From assembly GCA_963753125.1 (NCBI GenBank), contig CAVWAU010000002.1:7199-71198 (forward strand): a stretch of 64,000 bases of DNA, in the 5' to 3' direction. Source of the stretch: an uncultured Chloroflexia bacterium (GTDB lineage: Bacteria; Chloroflexota; Limnocylindria; QHBO01). Under the pieces are notes generated by a model. The model worked only from the letters and a program-made list of their open reading frames with translations, made no database searches and had not been told where the DNA came from. Made by a program: the position numbers and the translations under genes. Shown here one piece after another: positions 45,465 to 50,091 of this stretch (positions are counted from its first letter, which is position 1; each line of letters begins with the position of its first letter).

Positions 45465-47858
45465 CTAGCGGGTGGGTCGCTCCCGGTCGGACATCTCGAG
45501 GATGTCGAGCATCGGCAGGTCGCGCTGGTACTCGCTGAACTCGAACTCGGGGCCGCAGCGCAGGGCGTCGTACGGGCAGGCATCGGCGCAGATGCCGCAG
45601 AAGATGCAGCGGACTGACGTCGAGCTGGTAGGTCTCGAGGATGCGCGGCCGCGGCATGAGCGCGCCGACCGGGCAGGTCTCGGCGCATCGGCCGCAGGAG
45701 ACGCACGGCGTCTCGTTGAGGCTGACGTAGTCGGCGGTGGTGACGAGCGAGTCGAAGCCCTTGCCGATGAAGTCGTAGCAGCCGGCGCCGACGATCTCCT
45801 TGCAGACCTGGGCGCATCGGCCGCAGTCGATGCAGCGGCGAGTAGTCGCGCAGGATGAACGAGTGGGTCTCGTCGCGGCCGTAGCCGTGGTTGACGCCGA
45901 CGTACGGGTTGTCCTGGATCGAGCGCTCGTCGATCGCCATGTTGAGCGTCGTCTCGTACTCGATCGCCGCCTCGCGCAGGTCGCAGTGGCCGATCGCCTC
46001 GCACGTGCACTGGAGGCAGCGGCCGGCCTCGGCCATGGCCTGGTCGCCGGTGTAGCCGAACTCGTACTCGTCGAAGTTCGTGCGCCGCGCCTCCGGGCCC
46101 TGCTTGCCCATGATCGCCTTCGGCTCCTTCACGTCGTCGGTGAAGGGCACGATGGTCAGGAAGTTCGGCTGCGGCTCGGTGACGATGCGCCGCACCTGCG
46201 GGTCGTCGAGGTCGTGGCCGCGCAGCCAGTAGTCCATCGCGTAGCGACGCGCGCCGCGCCTCGCCGATGGCCTCGACCACGGTCGCGGCGCCGGTCCGCA
46301 CGTCGCCCGAGGCGAAGATCTTCGGGACGTCGGTGCGGAAGATGTGCTCCTCGGCCTCGAGCGTGCCGCGGCGGCTGACCTCGAGCCCGGCGCGGATCTC
46401 CTCCGGCTCGGAGTCGACCCACGACAGCTCCGGGCCCTGGCCGATGGCGCCGAGCACGGTGTCGCACTCGACGATGAACTCGGTGCCGGGCATCGGCTCC
46501 GGGCGGCGGCGGCCCTGCTCGTCCGGCTCGCCGAGCTTCATGCGCTGGAACTCGACGCCGGTGACCTTGTTGTTGTCATCGGTCACGATCCGGGTCGGCG
46601 CGGCCTGGAAGATGACGCGCGCGCCCTCCTCGATCGCCTCGTGCACCTCGTCGGCGGCCGGCATGTCCTTGAGGTCGCGGCGGTAGACGAGCGTCACCTC
46701 GGCAGCGCCCTGGCGCACGCTGGTCCGGGTGCAGTCGATGGCGGTGAATCCGCCGCCGATGACGACCACCCGGGCGCCCTTCAGGCGCGGGACCGGGATG
46801 CCGCGCGTCGAGTTGTAGAGGTTCTCGAGCGCGTTGACGGTGCCATCGGCGTCCTCGCCCTCGATGCCGAGCTCGTTCGGCTTGTAGCAGCCGATGCCGA
46901 CGTAGATGGCGTCGTAGTCGTCGATGATGTCGCCGATGTGGAAGTCGCGCCCGAGGCGCATGTTCGGCTTGAAGGTCGCGCCGAGCTCCCAGACGTGGTT
47001 GAGCTCGCGGTCCATCCAGCCCTTCGGCAGGCGGTACTGCGGGATGCCGTAGCGCAGCATGCCGCCCTGCTCCGGATCGGCCTCGAAGACGTCGCAGTGG
47101 TGTCCGCGCAGCTGGAGGTAGTAGGCGGCGGTCATGCCGGCCGGGCCCGGAGCCGATGATCGCCACGCGGCGTCCGGTGTCGGGCTCCTTCGGCCACGGG
47201 ATCGGCGCCGGGGCGTCGACCTCCAGCACCCGGTCGGCGCAGTAGCGATGCGAGTCGCGGATGGCGATGGCGGTGTCGACCTCCTCGCGCCGGCAGTGCG
47301 TCTCGCACGGCGCCGGGCAGACGCGGCCGAGGATGGCCGGGAACGGCAGCGAGCGCTTCAGGATGCGCGTCGCCTCCTCCCAGTTGCCGAGCGTGTTCTG
47401 CTTCAGGTAGCCCGGGATGTCGACGCGGGTCGGGCACTTGAACTGGCAGGGCGGCAGGCAGTACGCGTCGTGGTCGCTGAAGATGAGCTCGAGCACCATG
47501 CGGCGGTTCTCGATGACGCGATCGGAGTGGGTGGTGATGACCATCCCCTCGGCGATGTGCGGTCCCGCAGCTGATCGGCGTGTCGTCCGGCCCTCGACCT
47601 CGACCGCGCAGATGCGGCAGGCGCCGTACGGGGCCAGCTTCGGCTCGTAGCACAGCGTCGGGACCTCGATGCCGAGCACGCGGCAGGCCTGGAGGATCGT
47701 CTGCCCCTCCTCGACCTGGAGCTGCTGGCCGTTGATGGTGACGCCGATCTCGCGGGTGCCGGGCACCATCGGCCAGATCGGCGTGTAGTCGTCGACCCGC
47801 CCATTGCCGGGCGCCGTTGCCGTTGCCGGCCGTTGCCGTTCGTCGTTCCGAAGCCCAT
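45465..47858 (-). CDS. Fusion flavoprotein: NuoG-like N-terminal Fe-S domains + GltD/SfrB-type FAD/NADPH domain + 2x[4Fe-4S] + C-terminal half of NuoI (frameshifted)
   Basis: PTLC..GACRIC [2Fe-2S]; PPCQFKCP..GRVCPAPCE..C; IIGSGP.G; IGGGFTAID..YRR; CIDCGRC..C and CVSCGRC...CP; [30 protein letters not shown]. Confidence 0.85.
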
Positions 47859-47870
47859 CGGCTCCGTATC

Positions 47871-49256
47871 CTAGCTGAGGCTGAGTGGCCGGCCGCCGGA
47901 TCGACTCCGGGCAAGCGGCTGGAGGAGGGGTGGCCACGCCGTCGGTGCGGCAGGCGCCGGCCAGGCACACGCCGCGCTCGGCGTGCGCCCGGTACTCGTC
48001 ATCGAAGCGGTCGAGCGTCGTCAGGATCGGGCCCGAGGCGAGCCGCTCCAGCTTGCAGAGGGCGGTGTCGCTCACCTTGCGCGACAGCTCGCGCAGGAGC
48101 TCGAAGTCGTTCGGTCGCGGCGTGGCGGCCAGGATCCGGTCGAGCGCCTCGACGAGCCGCTTGCGTGCCGATGCGGCACGGGACCGCCTTGCCGCACGCC
48201 TCGCGCGCGCTGAAGTCGATGAAGAAGCGCGCGCGTGGCGACCATGCAGGTGCGCTGAATCGGTGACGAGCACCGAGCCGGAGCCGATGATCGCGCCGGC
48301 CGCCTCCATCGCGTCGTAGTCGTACGCCAGGTCCAGCGATCCGGCGTCGATCGCGCCGCCGCCCGGGCCGCCGACGAAGAGCGCCTTGGTCGTGCCGGTG
48401 CCGCCGCCGGCCATGCCGAGCAGGTCGAGCAGCGAGCGTGCCGAACGGGACCTCGAGCAGGCCCGGCTCGCCGACGCGGCCCATGACCGTGACGAGCTTC
48501 GTGCCGCGGTTGCCCTCGCTGCCGACCGACGCGAAGGCGTCCGGCGAGTGGGCCATGATCCACGCCACGTGCGCCAGCGTCTCGGCGTTCTGGACCACCG
48601 TCGGCGCGCCCCACAGGCCCCTTGTCGGCCGGGTACGGCGGACGGATCAGCGGCATGCCGCGATCGCCGGAGAGCGCGCTGATGAGCGCGGTCTCTTCGC
48701 CGGCGACGTAGGCGCCGGAGCCCTCCCAGACGCTCAGCTGCACGCTCGTATCGGTCCCGAGGACGAGGTAGCCGGCCGAGGTGCGCCTCGGTCGCCTCGC
48801 GGATCGCGGTCTGGAGCCGCTCGATGGCCGCCGTCCAGTCGCGACGCACCGCGATGATCGCCTCGCTGGCGCCGACCGCGTAGGCGGCGATGAGCATGCC
48901 CTCGACCACGAGGTGCGGGTTGCCCTCGGCCAGCGCGCGATCGCCGAGCGCGCTCGGGTCGGCGCGCCATCAGGTTGGCGACCACGATCTTGCGGTCGGC
49001 CTCCGTTCCGCGGGCCACGCGCCACTTGTCGGCGGTCGGGAAGCCGGAGCCGCCACGACCACGGAGGCCGGCGGCCTCGATCTCGCCGATCATCCCCTCC
49101 GGCGACAGCTTCGTGATGGCGCGCTCGAGGCCGGCGTAGCCGCCGTGGTCGCGGTAGCTGGCCAGGCTCGATCGGGTCGACCCGGCCGATGTCGGTCAGG
49201 ATGCGGTGCTCGCCGCCGGCGAGGATGCGGATCTGCGGCGACAGGGCGCTCGCCAT
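47871..49256 (-). CDS. nuoF: NuoF/HydB-like flavoprotein with divergent motifs (frameshifted)
   Basis: GLRGRGGSGFPT..KW; GAYVAGEETAL; VQNAETLA; GGPGGG; EACGKAVPCRIG; C-terminal H....C..G.C. Confidence 0.85.
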
Positions 49257-49257
49257 G

Positions 49258-50091
49258 TCAGCCAGCGCTCCCGGCGGTGGCGGCCGCGCGCCGCTCGCCG
49301 ACGATGTGGAGGGCCTTGTCCTCGGTCAGCGGGCCGTAGACCAGGGTGTCGATCCGGATCGCCGGGCTGATCGCGCCGGCGCCGACGTCCGTGCGCGTCT
49401 CGAGGCTGAAGCGGCCGTCGGCCGTCGTCTCGCCGGCCCGGATGCCGAGCTCTCGCTCGAGCGCGCGCGAGCAGGCGGTCGCCGCCGGCGAACCGGCACG
49501 AGGCGCAGTCGCAGACGGTGACGACGTGGCCCTCGGCGGGGAGCAGCCGGAAGCCGCCAAGGCCGGCGGCGCCGAAGACCTGCGCCCAATGGATGGTCAT
49601 CCGGTCGCTGACCCGACGCAGCGCGCGTTCGGGCAGGTAGCCGTAGCGTCGCCTCGATGGGACGGAAGATGGCGACGAGCGCCTCCGGGCGCCCCGCCGA
49701 AGCCGTCGATGACCTCGTCGACGAAGGCGTGTCGATCTCCTCGTCCCAGCGCGCCGGGTTGCGCATCGGCCTGGCCGGCACGCCCGCGCGACGGTAGGCG
49801 TTCGCGTCCTGGCGCTCGTCGTAGATCTCCGGCATGCCGTAGCGGATGCGGTTGCCCTCGCGAGTCGAAGCCGCTCATGTCGATCGCCTCGACCGGGCAG
49901 ACCTGCGCGCACTGGAAGCACACCTCGCACTTGTGCTCGCCGAACGGGTCGTAGATCAGGTCGAGGCGGCCGCGCCATCGGTCGGGGATGTCGGGGCGCT
50001 GCTCGGGGTACTGGCGGGTCACCTTCGGCGAGAAGAAGTTGCGGAAGGTCGTCGCCATGCCCTTGGCAATGCCGGAGCCGGGAATCGCCAT
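49258..50091 (-). CDS. Probable fusion of NuoI N-terminal half and degenerate NuoE (frameshifted)
   Basis: TRQYPE..P.RWRG...GEHKCEVCFQCAQVCPVEAI (one motif only); then YGYLPE, VCDCASC, GETTADGRFSLE. Confidence 0.75.

What the first reader, a model, noticed from the sequence alone, without database searches (positions are those of the whole stretch)
45465..50091. Split nuoI: the electron-input module sits inside nuoI and is fused to both halves
Seen in sequence: after nuoH comes only the first half of NuoI, with a single CxxCxxCxxxCP motif (about 49894-49929). No second motif follows, and the reading passes via a frameshifted linker into NuoE. The missing second half ([34 protein letters not shown]) lies about 4.3 kb downstream. 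Its start is in frame with the last ferredoxin motif of the NuoG/GltD protein (CPVGALMPRPRILETYQLDV), and one frameshift precedes its Cys motif. No intact nuoI is present in the operon. Established: in NuoI each of clusters N6a and N6b takes three Cys from one motif and one from the other. Inference: a nuoE-nuoF-(G/GltD) block was inserted into nuoI. N6a/N6b would then be built between two polypeptides, locking the input module onto the quinone module. I do not recognise this architecture from described complex I variants.
Basis: partly seen in the sequence, partly recalled or inferred. Interest (0 to 1): 0.92.

Follow-up and report, generated by a model that had tools for sequence, protein, structure and literature searches.

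The report
Complex I with split NuoI subunit
In this soil bacterium's respiratory complex I the small iron-sulfur subunit NuoI is cut in two and each half is fused to a different subunit of an unusual NADH/NADPH-oxidising head, an arrangement that is conserved in hundreds of related genomes but that I could not find described.

Summary
On the minus strand the window carries nuoA-B-C-D-H, then the N-terminal half of NuoI (one CxxCxxCxxxCP motif) running into a NuoE-like domain, then nuoF. Next comes a Fer2–GltD–Fer4 protein that ends in the C-terminal half of NuoI, then nuoJ-K-L-M-N.

A second copy in the same bin and clean genomes of relatives give two uninterrupted ORFs of about 280 aa and 770–800 aa. 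Both fusions occur across the class (named Candidatus Limnocylindria in public records). Five near-complete relatives have no intact nuoI.

The inserted genes are not ordinary nuoEFG. They are a reduced NfnABC/Stn-type (Bfu-family) module with an NADPH-type GltD flavin domain.

A second lineage, probably Thermoleophilia, has the same split operon with a complete Bfu core. A third fuses the same module to pyruvate:ferredoxin oxidoreductase.

That the two halves rebuild the N6a/N6b domain between two polypeptides is inferred from complementary family-model matches and invariant cysteines. A complex prediction gave only weak support.

I rate this a new variant of a known kind; the nearest description in print is the predicted "Nuo-Bfu".

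The parts
51126..54018 (-). nuoA (53653-54018), nuoB (53008-53550), nuoC (52404-52883) and nuoD (about 51126-52407). These are the upstream part of the operon. nuoD is broken by one frame change.
   Evidence: ORF list. tblastn with the G024 NuoD gives pieces 52407->51259 and 51266->51126. Gene order is as in the clean relative L016.
50106..51139 (-). nuoH, with one frame change between about 50585 and 50546.
   Evidence: In one search the two tblastn pieces lie in different frames. Five other loci of the family have it in one frame.
49258..50091 (-). Gene for the fusion of the NuoI N-half with a NuoE-like domain. It is a 279-280 aa single ORF in relatives. Here it is broken by 3-5 single-base frame changes.
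   Evidence: The clean homologue P0003 is L009:12153-12992. It matches NCBIfam NuoI model positions 1-72 at residues 11-83, and Pfam PF01257 at residues 125-264.
49849..50091 (-). NuoI N-terminal half (residues 1-81). It holds the NuoI-type N-terminal segment and the first CxxCxxCxxxCP motif at 49929->49894.
   Evidence: maps P0003 residues 1-81 to 50091->49849. C55, C58, C61, C65 and P66 are invariant in 20 sequences. It is 47% identical over 72 residues to the canonical NuoI of a class member.
49735..49848 (-). Linker between the NuoI N-half and the NuoE-like domain (residues about 82-119). It is in frame and conserved in relatives.
   Evidence: Alignments A1 and A5. Contigs of 4 public runs lack one base at 49859, the window's first frame change.
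49261..49734 (-). NuoE-like thioredoxin-fold domain. The first Cys pair of the [2Fe-2S] site is kept and the second pair is missing.
   Evidence: Pfam PF01257, E 2.7e-22. The alignment to solved HydC/StnA-type chains shows the second Cys pair replaced. Alignments agree.
47871..49256 (-). nuoF-like gene (455 aa in G024). It has 7 frame changes here. It has no N-terminal thioredoxin-like domain and no C-terminal ferredoxin domain. The second Cys of the N3/B1 CxxCxxC motif is replaced.
   Evidence: Pfam Complex1_51K and NADH_4Fe-4S score over their cut-offs. NCBIfam TIGR01959 scores 337.5 bits against a cut-off of 558.65.
45465..47858 (-). Gene for the Fer2-GltD-Fer4 protein fused to the NuoI C-half. 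It is 766-800 aa as a single ORF in relatives. Here it is broken by 4-5 frame changes.
   Evidence: The clean homologue P0002 is L009:8390-10690.
47524..47754 (-). [2Fe-2S] Fer2_4 domain, the equivalent of NuoG N1b and NfnA cluster A1.
   Evidence: PF13510, E 5.3e-21, at P0002 residues 6-82. Its four Cys are invariant in 8 sequences. Coordinates come from the mapping.
46220..47457 (-). GltD/NfnL-like flavoprotein domain. It holds two [4Fe-4S] sites (Fer4_20), an FAD site and a GxGxxA nucleotide site, inserted into the NuoG-like N-terminal domain.
   Evidence: PF14691 and PF07992. NF009454 matches residues 6-658 with E 4.6e-164. The HxxxCxxxCxxxCP and CxxCxC-type motifs are invariant and are described for StnC/NsoC in PMC7483475.
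45658..45856 (-). NuoG/HydA-type two-cluster ferredoxin domain (Cys motifs a and b).
   Evidence: PF22117 Fer4_Nqo3 at P0002 residues 638-703 and Fer4_21 at 642-701. The Cys are invariant.
45465..45654 (-). NuoI C-terminal half. It holds the second CxxCxxCxxxCP motif at 45608->45573 and the NuoI-type C-terminal segment, joined to the preceding ferredoxin motif by about 20 residues.
   Evidence: TIGR01971 model positions 71-112 match P0002 residues 708-749. The same model is the best family hit for the isolated C-terminus of G024, at 63.3 bits. C720, C723, C726, C730 and P731 are invariant. One frame change lies at about 45612.
41519..44747 (-). nuoJ (44049-44747), nuoK (43740-44045) and nuoL (41519-43729, broken by frame changes). 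nuoM and nuoN follow further down.
   Evidence: Gene order is as in L016.
45613..49859 (.). Single extra bases of the window relative to related contigs of public runs. They lie at 45613, 45841, 46244, 47146, 47559, 47866, 47876, 48235, 48256, 48435, 48437 and 49859. Most coincide with the frame changes.
   Evidence: read-laying table 4. The sequence context is not homopolymeric.

Best explanation
**What it is.** The window encodes a genuine variant of respiratory complex I, copied here with many sequencing indels. The variant is conserved across a class of Chloroflexota that public records name Candidatus Limnocylindria.

**The input module.** The canonical NuoE-F-G module is replaced by a reduced NfnABC/Stn-type (Bfu-family) module. 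Its parts are:
- a NuoE-like subunit;
- a plain NuoF-like FMN subunit;
- a BfuA-like subunit made of [2Fe-2S], a GltD-type FAD/NAD(P)H domain with two [4Fe-4S] sites, and a two-cluster ferredoxin domain. It lacks the formate-dehydrogenase-like C-terminal domain.

**The split.** NuoI is encoded in two pieces.
- The N-half, with the first Cys motif, is the N-terminus of the NuoE-like subunit.
- The C-half, with the second Cys motif, is the C-terminus of the BfuA-like subunit.

**Inferred assembly.** The two halves fold together into the usual 2x[4Fe-4S] NuoI domain. Each cluster (N6a, N6b) then takes three Cys from one chain and one from the other. This covalently tethers two subunits of the input module to the quinone module, at the place where NfnA carries its Fdh-like domain.

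**Inferred electron paths.**
- NADPH (or NADH) -> FAD -> two [4Fe-4S] -> ferredoxin-domain clusters -> N6a/N6b -> N2 (NuoB) -> quinone.
- NADH -> FMN (NuoF) -> N3-like cluster -> [2Fe-2S] -> the same ferredoxin-domain clusters.

**Bifurcation.** In this lineage the Bfu bifurcation core is dismantled, so I expect a plain NAD(P)H:quinone oxidoreductase and not a bifurcating enzyme.

**Shown versus inferred.** Shown: gene order, fusions, domain identities, conservation and the missing ligands. Inferred: assembly of the halves, electron paths and substrates.
For: **Fusions are single ORFs**
- The C6 copy gives P0003 (279 aa) and P0002 (766 aa) without stops.
- In a sample of 200 further class genomes at least 80% complete, the NuoI-N::NuoE protein is matched in f1 67/69, f3 61/62 and f4 7/7. 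The f1 rows listed are mostly full length with no stops inside. Many f3 rows cover only about residues 3-180.
- In 100 genomes at least 90% complete, P0002 is matched in f1 39/39, f2 21/21, f3 34/34, f4 5/5 and f5 1/1. The best match reaches residue 748-766 wherever the gene is not cut by a contig end.
- Protein database: 542 hits for P0003, the best 120 being 273-286 aa long. 1046 hits for residues 640-766 of P0002.

**Gene order**
- nuoABCDH-[I_N::E]-F-[GD::I_C]-JKL in 6 of 6 loci of families f1, f3 and f4.

**The halves are complementary**
- TIGR01971 model positions 1-72 fall in P0003 and 71-112 in P0002.
- BLASTP against a canonical NuoI of the same class aligns residues 6-77 of P0003 with positions 8-79, and the C-half with positions 60-126.
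- All eight Cys and both Pro of the two motifs are invariant.

**No intact NuoI**
- 0 of 5 near-complete relatives have a match over the family cut-off. Nor does the own genome, which is 62% complete.

**The frame changes are errors**
- Pieces are 88-100% identical in amino acids to G024 while the DNA is about 85-87% identical to C6.
- Contigs of 4 public runs lack one base at the frame-change sites.

**Module identity**
- P0002 matches solved NfnA (9bov_A, E 1.2e-166), StnC (8oh5_C, E 1.1e-146) and archaeal NfnA (9n5u_A).
- The StnC motifs and the GxGxxA site are present.

**Complex prediction**
- NuoI N-half (residues 1-118) with the C-half (residues 700-766) and two 4Fe-4S clusters: weak support. 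Score 0.33, best of 3 controls 0.00.
- The mark was reached by 58 of 80 solved complexes and 2 of 110 mismatched pairs. At 0.60 or under it was reached by only 7 of those 80 and by both mismatches.
- The runs agree in at least 86% of contacts. The partner's pLDDT is at least 53.
- Halves of a split gene can pass by likeness to solved NuoI structures.
Against: - No experiment or high-confidence model shows that the halves assemble.
- Pfam also reads Cys motifs b and c of P0002 as one ordinary dicluster domain (Fer4_7, residues 688-734, E 1.1e-11). BLASTP aligns motif b with the first NuoI motif. An intramolecular pairing is therefore not excluded.
- In this lineage the NuoE domain lacks two of the four [2Fe-2S] ligands. 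NuoF lacks one of the four N3 ligands and has a diverged NADE loop. The FMN route may therefore be impaired, which makes the 'two donors' part uncertain.
- The NADPH preference rests only on a GxGxxA motif and on the statement of one paper.
- The P0002 and NuoF family scores lie below NCBIfam's curated cut-offs.
- Expression is not shown. RNA-library contigs of relatives exist, but they do not prove transcription.
Confidence: 0.72

Rival explanations
1. Artefact or decay. The split and fusions come from misassembly, from frameshift errors, or from a dying pseudogene operon. The organism would really have an ordinary nuoI.
For: - The window contig is of poor quality. All nuo genes carry frame changes, at least 14 in 4.6 kb.
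- The bin is only 62% complete and holds two collinear contigs at 75-88% identity.
Against: - The same architecture appears with clean ORFs in the C6 copy and in the class-wide samples.
- No intact NuoI was found in 5 genomes that are 93-96% complete.
- The window's pieces keep 88-100% amino-acid identity to a clean relative.
- The extra bases are absent from related contigs of 4 runs.
Confidence: 0.02
2. The fusions are real but no clusters are shared. The C-terminal motif of the GltD subunit would pair with the preceding motif of the same chain as an ordinary ferredoxin domain. The N-half on NuoE would then hold at most one cluster, or serve only as a docking peptide.
For: - Pfam Fer4_7, Fer4_9 and Fer4_10 match residues 688-734 (motifs b and c) as one dicluster domain.
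- The spacing between b and c is that of a normal ferredoxin. BLASTP aligns b with the first NuoI motif.
- The complex prediction is only weak.
Against: - Motif b is also the second half of the NuoG/HydA-type domain formed with motif a (PF22117 and Fer4_21). That domain is conserved in NfnA and StnC. Pairing b with c would leave motif a and the N-half motif each three-quarters of a cluster short.
- All 16 Cys of the four motifs are invariant.
- The NuoI model hits are complementary and not overlapping.
Confidence: 0.12
3. The three inserted genes encode a separate soluble Nfn/Stn-like transhydrogenase that merely sits inside the nuo operon. The membrane complex would work without it, with ferredoxin or another donor.
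For: - Close homologues of the module are soluble enzymes (NfnABC, Stn).
- Relatives of the same module occur outside nuo operons, in the POR-linked and five-gene clusters.
Against: - The only NuoI sequence of these genomes lies on those two proteins. NuoI is a core subunit between the input module and NuoB in every solved complex I (recalled, not tested here).
- The N-half keeps the NuoI-specific N-terminal segment.
- The module sits between nuoH and nuoJ in all 12 nuo-type loci annotated.
Confidence: 0.05
4. The enzyme is an electron-confurcating or -bifurcating complex I (a 'Nuo-Bfu'). It would couple NADH, NADPH and/or ferredoxin to quinone reduction through the Bfu flavobicluster, also in the window's lineage.
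For: - The module is homologous to bifurcating NfnABC/Stn.
- Schut et al. 2022 predict confurcating Nuo-Bfu complexes.
Against: In the window's lineage the features that PMC11829005 names as the bifurcation site and low-potential path are incomplete.
- The C1 ligands are halved.
- One B1/N3 Cys is lost in 5 of 6 sequences examined.
- The B3/B4 domain is absent.
Confidence: 0.08

Closest known systems
Canonical NuoI (Nqo9/TYKY/NDUFS8), NCBIfam TIGR01971
   Same: Both halves match the family model, N-half at positions 1-72 and C-half at 71-112. Both CxxCxxCxxxCP motifs are invariant. The halves lie between nuoH and nuoJ.
   Different: It is encoded as two pieces on two other proteins, separated by about 4.3 kb. 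No single polypeptide reaches the family cut-off.
Predicted 'Nuo-Bfu' complex I of Schut et al. 2022 (PMC9304861; passages read, supplements not seen)
   Same: [quoted passage not shown]
   Different: - The published type is described as 14 subunits (A-N) in Deferribacteres, Proteobacteria, Planctomycetes and Nitrospirae.
- The main text contains none of the words split, fused, fusion, GltD or Actinobacteria.
- Here NuoI is split, BfuA carries a GltD domain, and in the window's lineage the bifurcating core is reduced.
NfnABC / Stn electron-bifurcating transhydrogenases (PDB 9BOV, 8OH5, 9N5U; PMC11829005, PMC10482914, PMC12018979, PMC7483475)
   Same: - The GltD-bearing subunit aligns over residues 8-730 with NfnA and StnC (E 1.2e-166 and 1.1e-146).
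- The NuoE-like domain aligns with NfnC and StnA.
- The HxxxCxxxCxxxCP and CxxCxC-type motifs and the GxGxxA site are present.
   Different: - There is no Fdh-like C-terminal domain. It is replaced by the NuoI C-half.
- NuoF lacks the N- and C-terminal cluster domains.
- The NuoE domain lacks two Cys.
- The genes are embedded in a nuo operon.
Known gene fusions of complex I subunits (NuoCD, NuoBCD), as listed in PMC4758237 (passages read)
   Same: Neighbouring core subunits are joined into one polypeptide.
   Different: Those are fusions of whole subunits. Here one core subunit is divided, and its halves are fused to two different subunits of another module.
Predicted 'Por-Bfu' (PMC9304861)
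   Same: A Bfu module is encoded together with pyruvate:ferredoxin oxidoreductase subunits. The Thermoleophilia loci found here have por gamma, delta and alpha upstream of the module.
   Different: - In the loci found here the BfuA-like subunit carries GltD and a NuoI-like C-half, and is fused in frame to a PorB-type TPP domain.
- The NuoE subunit carries a NuoI-like N-half.
- The paper describes separate Por subunits in Dehalococcoides and Proteobacteria.

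Membership tests
NuoI (TIGR01971) | N-terminal NuoI segment plus the first CxxCxxCxxxCP motif | tested here: met
   P0003 residues 11-83 match model positions 1-72 at 58 bits. 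The window copy matches model positions 1-63 at 56 bits. The Cys are invariant.
NuoI (TIGR01971) | Second CxxCxxCxxxCP motif plus the C-terminal segment | tested here: met
   P0002 residues 708-749 match model positions 71-112. The isolated C-terminus of G024 scores 63.3 bits as its best family. The Cys are invariant.
NuoI (TIGR01971) | Both motifs on one polypeptide that scores over the family cut-off (113.05 bits) | tested here: not met
   No match over the cut-off in the own genome (0 of 12 matches) or in 5 near-complete relatives (0 of 5 genomes).
NuoI (TIGR01971) | Binds clusters N6a and N6b and bridges NuoG to NuoB | not testable with these tools
   Inferred only. The complex prediction of the two halves gave weak support: 0.33 against 0.00 for the best control.
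NuoE / thioredoxin-like [2Fe-2S] ferredoxin (PF01257) | Domain match over the Pfam cut-off | tested here: met
   79.6 bits against a cut-off of 24.8, at residues 125-264 of P0003.
NuoE / thioredoxin-like [2Fe-2S] ferredoxin (PF01257) | Four Cys ligands of the [2Fe-2S] cluster (N1a / C1) | tested here: not met
   The second Cys pair is replaced in f1 and in most f3/f4 sequences. It is present in the L134 lineage.
NuoF (TIGR01959; PF01512 + PF10589) | FMN-binding and 4Fe-4S-binding domains | tested here: met
   PF01512 scores 123.7 bits and PF10589 76.5 bits, both over their cut-offs. The equivalog TIGR01959 scores only 337.5 bits against 558.65.
NuoF (TIGR01959; PF01512 + PF10589) | Complete CxxCxxC...C ligand set of cluster N3/B1 | tested here: not met
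   The second Cys is replaced by Ala or Thr in 5 of 6 membrane-type class sequences (L016, L019, L020, L024, L025; not L018).
BfuA of NfnABC/Stn type (NF009454 PRK12814; solved NfnA/StnC) | [2Fe-2S] domain, a GltD/NfnL-like FAD domain inserted in a NuoG-like N-terminus, and a two-cluster ferredoxin domain | tested here: met
   NF009454 matches residues 6-658 with E 4.6e-164, but at 547 bits is under the curated 916.
BfuA of NfnABC/Stn type (NF009454 PRK12814; solved NfnA/StnC) | Fdh/molybdopterin-like C-terminal domain | tested here: not met
   The protein ends 36 residues after the last Cys motif and has no such Pfam domain. NfnA and StnC are 1172-1178 aa long.
Bfu electron-bifurcating enzymes (flavobicluster B1-FMN-C1 plus B3/B4, as defined in PMC11829005) | Complete B1 and C1 ligands and a BfuB C-terminal domain with two [4Fe-4S] | tested here: not met
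   In the window lineage the C1 ligands are halved, one B1 Cys is lost and there is no C-terminal domain. The feature is met by sequence in the L134 lineage.
Nuo-Bfu (PMC9304861) | BfuABC genes in the middle of a complete nuo gene cluster | tested here: met
   Seen in 6 of 6 class loci and 6 of 6 metagenome loci annotated.
Nuo-Bfu (PMC9304861) | Fourteen separate subunits A-N, including NuoI | tested here: not met
   There are thirteen genes and NuoI exists only as two fused halves.

The most novel reading that the evidence does not exclude
A widespread, unrecognised class of respiratory complex I exists in abundant soil and freshwater lineages: Limnocylindria and a Thermoleophilia-like group.

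- An NfnABC-type flavoprotein module is hard-wired to the quinone module through a NuoI domain assembled from two polypeptides.
- The enzyme takes electrons from NADPH as well as NADH.
- In the lineage that keeps the full Bfu core, it couples quinone reduction and proton pumping to flavin-based confurcation.
- The split NuoI is a portable 'plug' that also docks the same module onto pyruvate:ferredoxin oxidoreductase.
Probability: 0.35. Interest if true: 0.92.

Novelty: new variant of a known kind. Interest (0 to 1): 0.8.

Why it matters
- **A new kind of subunit arrangement.** NuoI is one of the most conserved core subunits of complex I. I could find no report of it being divided, and no report of its two clusters being held between two chains.
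- **Evolution of complex I.** If the reading is right, it is a natural experiment on how the electron-input module was joined to the quinone module, by covalent tethers instead of the NuoG C-terminal domain. It gives concrete intermediates for the modular evolution of complex I from Bfu-type soluble enzymes.
- **Physiology of uncultured lineages.** It suggests that abundant, uncultured soil and freshwater bacteria may feed NADPH directly into the respiratory chain.
- **Annotation.** Public records call these proteins only 'NADH:ubiquinone oxidoreductase subunit E', 'formate dehydrogenase major subunit' or 'FAD-dependent oxidoreductase'. Metabolic reconstructions of these lineages would therefore score nuoI and nuoG as missing.

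Tried and rejected
**Leads that led nowhere or were rejected**
- A conserved or programmed frameshift in nuoH. The window and G024 both switch frame there, but L009, L011, L012, L014 and L015 read nuoH in one frame. Rejected as local errors.
- Homopolymer errors. The 12 extra bases listed by read laying are not in homopolymer runs. I make no claim about the error type beyond 'single-base insertions'.
- Polishing with the source reads. No public run held half or more of the sampled words of window:45400-50200; the best share was 0.26. The laid contigs therefore come from relatives and not from this strain. They show that relatives lack the extra bases, not what the true sequence of this strain is. 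I draw no habitat claim and no expression claim from those runs.
- Phylum-wide search with P0149. It was dominated by ordinary NuoE matches. Among the 150 rows listed, only G059, G040 and G000:C6 begin at query residue 2-3. A further 158 rows were not listed. This is only 'not found in those searched' for other Chloroflexota classes.
- Polarity of evolution. The tree of 18 GltD-subunit sequences that I chose (7 class nuo-type, 1 five-gene type, 6 metagenome nuo-type, 4 POR-linked) separates the four groups with 100/100 support. It is unrooted, and the five-gene row is a long branch. No donor and no order of events is claimed.
- The I_C-to-NuoJ fusion as a 'Rosetta stone'. P0314 reads cleanly from the C-half tail into NuoJ, but P0334 and P0366 show frame-shifted stretches. 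One clean case with a truncated N-terminus is not enough.

No fold model and no fold search could be made.
- Supplements of papers were not seen. Supplementary figures of PMC9304861 may list more Nuo-Bfu architectures.

- and one search failed on coordinates that gave stop codons. One search was corrected. One search was replaced by scans of the clean C6 proteins.
- translated the wrong overlapping ORF. One search is the right one.
I then sent the single protein P0189.

Full report
**What is in the window.** The window has about 70% G+C. Between about 39.9 kb and 54.0 kb it carries a nuo operon on the minus strand. I read the three minus-strand frames from 50400 to 45200 and mapped clean homologues onto them. 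This gives the following order:
- nuoH ends at 50106.
- An ATG at 50091 opens the N-terminal half of NuoI. Its single CxxCxxCxxxCP motif lies at 49929->49894.
- The reading continues through a linker into a NuoE-like domain and stops at 49260-49258.
- nuoF runs 49256->47871.
- A gene from 47858 to 45465 encodes a [2Fe-2S] domain, a GltD-like flavoprotein domain, a two-cluster ferredoxin domain and, at its very end, the C-terminal half of NuoI. The second motif lies at 45608->45573.
- nuoJ follows.

**The frame changes are errors of this contig.** The region needs at least 14 frame changes by the script: 3 in the first fusion gene, 7 in nuoF and 4 in the second fusion gene. Two or three more are visible by eye. 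nuoD, nuoH and nuoL are broken too.
- The genome held for this window is a bin of 6 contigs and 1.9 Mb, 62% complete.
- Contig C6 carries a second copy of the whole region. C2 and C6 are collinear over 75 kb of the 100 kb of C2 at 75-88% identity. Across the nuo region identity is 85-87%, with 160 gaps in 8666 columns.
- I read this as two congeneric genomes in one bin. That is an inference.
- In the C6 copy both fusion genes are uninterrupted: P0003 has 279 aa and P0002 has 766 aa.
- The window's pieces of the second gene are 88-100% identical in amino acids to the clean protein of relative G024. That does not fit a decaying pseudogene.
- Contigs of four public runs were laid on window:45400-50200 at 88% likeness or more. 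Two runs are DNA and two are RNA libraries, and all come from relatives. They lack exactly one base at 45613, 45841, 46244, 47146, 47559, 47866, 47876, 48235, 48256, 48435, 48437 and 49859. Most of these are the places where my mapping changes frame.
- The extra bases are not in homopolymers.

**Identity of the halves.**
- NCBIfam's NuoI model TIGR01971 (121 positions) matches P0003 at residues 11-83 with model positions 1-72. It matches P0002 at residues 708-749 with model positions 71-112.
- In the own genome the same pattern appears twice, once on C6 and once in the window. None of the 12 matches reaches the cut-off of 113 bits.
- The isolated C-terminus of the G024 protein has TIGR01971 as its best family, at 63.3 bits.
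- I compared the halves with a canonical 156-aa NuoI from another family of the same class (L022). The N-half aligns with positions 8-79 at 47% identity and the C-half with positions 60-126.
- The four Cys and the Pro of the first motif are invariant in 20 sequences. Those of the second motif are invariant in 8.
- In a 2x[4Fe-4S] ferredoxin fold each motif gives three Cys to one cluster and its last Cys to the other. This is established knowledge, recalled. If the halves fold together, both clusters are therefore shared between chains.

**Conservation.**
- A protein search with P0003 gave 542 hits among 8000 scored candidates. The best 120 are 273-286 aa long, 78-96% identical and cover 94-100% of the query.
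  - Where named, they are called only 'NADH:ubiquinone oxidoreductase subunit E' or 'NAD(P)H-dependent oxidoreductase subunit E', mostly from Candidatus Limnocylindria MAGs.
- Among 40 relatives, 23 of 24 genomes of the genus have it, almost all as one full-length match without stops.
- In a sample of 200 further class genomes at least 80% complete the counts are f1 67/69, f3 61/62, f4 7/7, f2 59/61 and f5 1/1. The f2 and f5 matches are weak.
- P0002 is matched in 100 of 100 class genomes at least 90% complete. The match reaches residue 748-766 wherever the gene is not cut by a contig end.
- A protein search with residues 640-766 of P0002 gave 1046 hits among 1084 candidates. They are named 'formate dehydrogenase major subunit', 'NADPH-dependent glutamate synthase beta subunit-like oxidoreductase/...' or 'FAD-dependent oxidoreductase'.
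- In six clean loci of families f1, f3 and f4 the order is nuoA-B-C-D-H-[NuoI-N::NuoE]-F-[Fer2-GltD-Fer4::NuoI-C]-J-K-L.
- Five genomes that are 93-96% complete (three f1, one f3, one f4) have no NuoI match over the cut-off. Their best matches are the two halves.
- Some of these tallies include unpublished genomes. They are listed under 'tried and rejected'.

**The input module is of the NfnABC/Stn type.**
- P0002 matches NF009454 over residues 6-658 (E 4.6e-164).
- Among solved structures it matches 9bov_A (E 1.2e-166), 8oh5_C (E 1.1e-146) and 9n5u_A (E 8.8e-140).
- These entries are Caldicellulosiruptor NfnABC, Sporomusa Stn and an archaeal Nfn-Bfu, by the papers that cite them (search listing).
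- The Fdh-like C-terminal domain of NfnA/StnC is absent.
- The NuoE-like domain aligns with NfnC/StnA/HydC chains but lacks the second Cys pair of the [2Fe-2S] site.
- NuoF has 455 aa and only the FMN, SLBB and 4Fe-4S domains.
- In 5 of 6 class sequences the second Cys of the N3/B1 motif is Ala or Thr, and the NADE loop is diverged.
- PMC11829005 (abstract and passages) defines the Bfu bifurcation site as [B1-FMN-C1], with B3/B4 leading to ferredoxin. In the window's lineage that site is incomplete.
- By contrast the [2Fe-2S] A1 ligands, the GltD cluster ligands and the ferredoxin-domain ligands are all invariant.

**Proposed mechanism (inferred).**
- In NfnABC, electrons run FAD-A7-A6-A3-A2-A1 to the flavobicluster. 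[quoted passage not shown]
- In the Limnocylindria enzyme the Fdh-like domain is gone. In its place the chain ends in the NuoI C-half, while the N-terminus of the NfnC/NuoE homologue carries the NuoI N-half.
- Both tethers therefore converge on the same spot. There the halves can form the NuoI domain and hand electrons to N2 of NuoB and on to quinone.
- NADPH (or NADH) at the GltD FAD and NADH at the NuoF FMN would be alternative entries.
- The loss of ligands in NuoE and NuoF makes the second entry less certain.

**The complex prediction** of residues 1-118 of P0003 with residues 700-766 of P0002 and two 4Fe-4S clusters gave weak support.
- Score 0.33; best of 3 controls 0.00.
- The mark was reached by 58 of 80 solved complexes and 2 of 110 mismatched pairs. 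At 0.60 or under it was reached by only 7 of the 80 and by both mismatches.
- Contacts agree in at least 86% of cases. The partner's pLDDT is at least 53.
- Halves of a split gene may pass from likeness to solved NuoI.

**Wider distribution.** A scan of 1.84 billion representatives with P0003 gave 4393 hits at E<=0.001 and 23 at E<=1e-30. Several distant full-length fusions appear among them, and these keep all four NuoE Cys.
- *P0149 type.*
  - It is found on 80 metagenome loci.
  - All 6 loci I annotated have the same complete split operon.
  - In L134 the NuoE part has all its Cys. NuoF has 632 aa with a thioredoxin-like N-domain and a C-terminal 2x[4Fe-4S]. The GltD protein (824 aa) ends in a NuoI C-half.
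  - This branch has 1095 database proteins at E<=1e-30. The one named record is 'Thermoleophilia bacterium'.
- *P0189 type.*
  - It lies in 79 genome loci, mostly titled Thermoleophilia, Gaiellales or Actinomycetota.
  - These loci have no nuo genes within 10 kb in the 6 I annotated.
  - In L028 the order is POR gamma, delta and alpha, then NuoI-like-N::NuoE, then a Bfu-type NuoF. A 1089-aa protein follows in which the NuoI-like C-half continues into a PorB-type TPP domain.
- *Families f2 and f5 of the window's own class.*
  - G039 carries a canonical 14-gene nuo operon with a whole NuoI (L022).
  - In G039 (f2) a five-gene cluster nuoB-nuoD-[NuoI-N::degenerate NuoE]-F-[GltD::NuoI-C] lies about 20 kb away, flanked by unrelated genes (L021); the f5 locus L023 shows only its start (nuoB-nuoD-NuoI-N and the start of F) before the contig ends, and no canonical nuo operon was looked for in G033.
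- *Tree.* An unrooted tree of 18 GltD subunits separates these four groups with full support. It gives no direction.

**Novelty.**
- Full-text searches found no description of a divided NuoI. The searches covered split/fused NuoI or NuoE, Limnocylindria with complex I, GltD/NuoG with complex I, N6a/N6b with two polypeptides, Bfu with NuoI/NuoH, 'Nuo-Bfu', and Thermoleophilia with nuo genes.
- Passages of two reviews of complex I evolution list only whole-subunit fusions, and GltD replacing NuoI in mbx-like operons.
- The nearest work in print is Schut et al. 2022. It predicts 14-subunit 'Nuo-Bfu' and 'Por-Bfu' enzymes in other phyla. Its main text contains none of the words split, fused, fusion, GltD or Actinobacteria. 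I did not see its supplements.
- I therefore rate the finding a new variant of a known kind. The split of a core subunit is the new element.

**Limits.**
- Nothing here shows the protein, its clusters, its substrates or its expression.
- The window's own strain could not be re-polished.

Noticed in passing
whole window; G000 contigs C2 and C6: The window's contig C2 is collinear with C6:41.7k-141k at 75-88% identity over 75 kb of its 100 kb. The bin therefore seems to hold two congeneric genomes, or one very large duplication. C2 is far richer in single-base indels than C6.
   Followed up: partly
L021 (G039:C21:62000-81999) 5914-12157; L022; L023: Family f2 of the same class (G039) has a canonical 14-gene nuo operon with a whole NuoI. 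About 20 kb away it also has a five-gene cluster: nuoB-nuoD-[NuoI N-half::degenerate NuoE]-nuoF-[Fer2-GltD-Fer4::NuoI C-half]. That cluster has no nuoC and no membrane subunits; the f5 locus L023 shows only its start (nuoB-nuoD-NuoI N-half-F) before the contig ends. It may be a second peripheral arm or a soluble remnant.
   Followed up: partly
L028 7806-15986 (also L034, L041, L067, L086): Thermoleophilia MAGs encode POR gamma, delta and alpha, then [NuoI-like N-half::NuoE], then a Bfu-type NuoF. A 1089-aa protein follows in which Fer2-GltD-Fer4 and a NuoI-like C-half are fused to a PorB-type TPP domain. The same split 'plug' thus joins the module to a 2-oxoacid oxidoreductase.
   Followed up: partly
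L134 7883-14148 (and L116, L147, L161, L177, L194): A second lineage, with one related record named Thermoleophilia, has the full split-NuoI nuo operon. It also has a complete Bfu core: a 632-aa NuoF with thioredoxin-like and 2x[4Fe-4S] extra domains, and a NuoE with all four Cys. It is a candidate confurcating complex I.
   Followed up: partly
window 49261-49734 and 47871-49256; L016, L018-L025: In the window's lineage the NuoE domain lacks the second Cys pair of its [2Fe-2S] site. NuoF lacks the second Cys of the N3 motif (Ala or Thr in 5 of 6 sequences). The [2Fe-2S] of the GltD subunit stays invariant.
   Followed up: partly
protein P0314 (database protein): One database protein reads cleanly from the C-terminal tail of the NuoI C-half straight into NuoJ (PF00499). 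Two similar ones (P0334, P0366) contain frame-shifted stretches. This is either a further fusion to the membrane arm or a gene-calling artefact.
   Followed up: no
proteins: Public annotations name the two fusion proteins only as NuoE, 'formate dehydrogenase major subunit' or 'FAD-dependent oxidoreductase'. A few JGI names add 'formate hydrogenlyase subunit 6/NADH:ubiquinone oxidoreductase subunit I'. Automated pathway calls would miss nuoI and nuoG in these genomes.
   Followed up: no
f3 genomes (e.g. G096, G168, G194): In several f3 genera the match to the NuoI-N::NuoE protein stops near residue 176-220, in ORFs of about 225-245 aa. The NuoE-like domain may be truncated further there.
   Followed up: no
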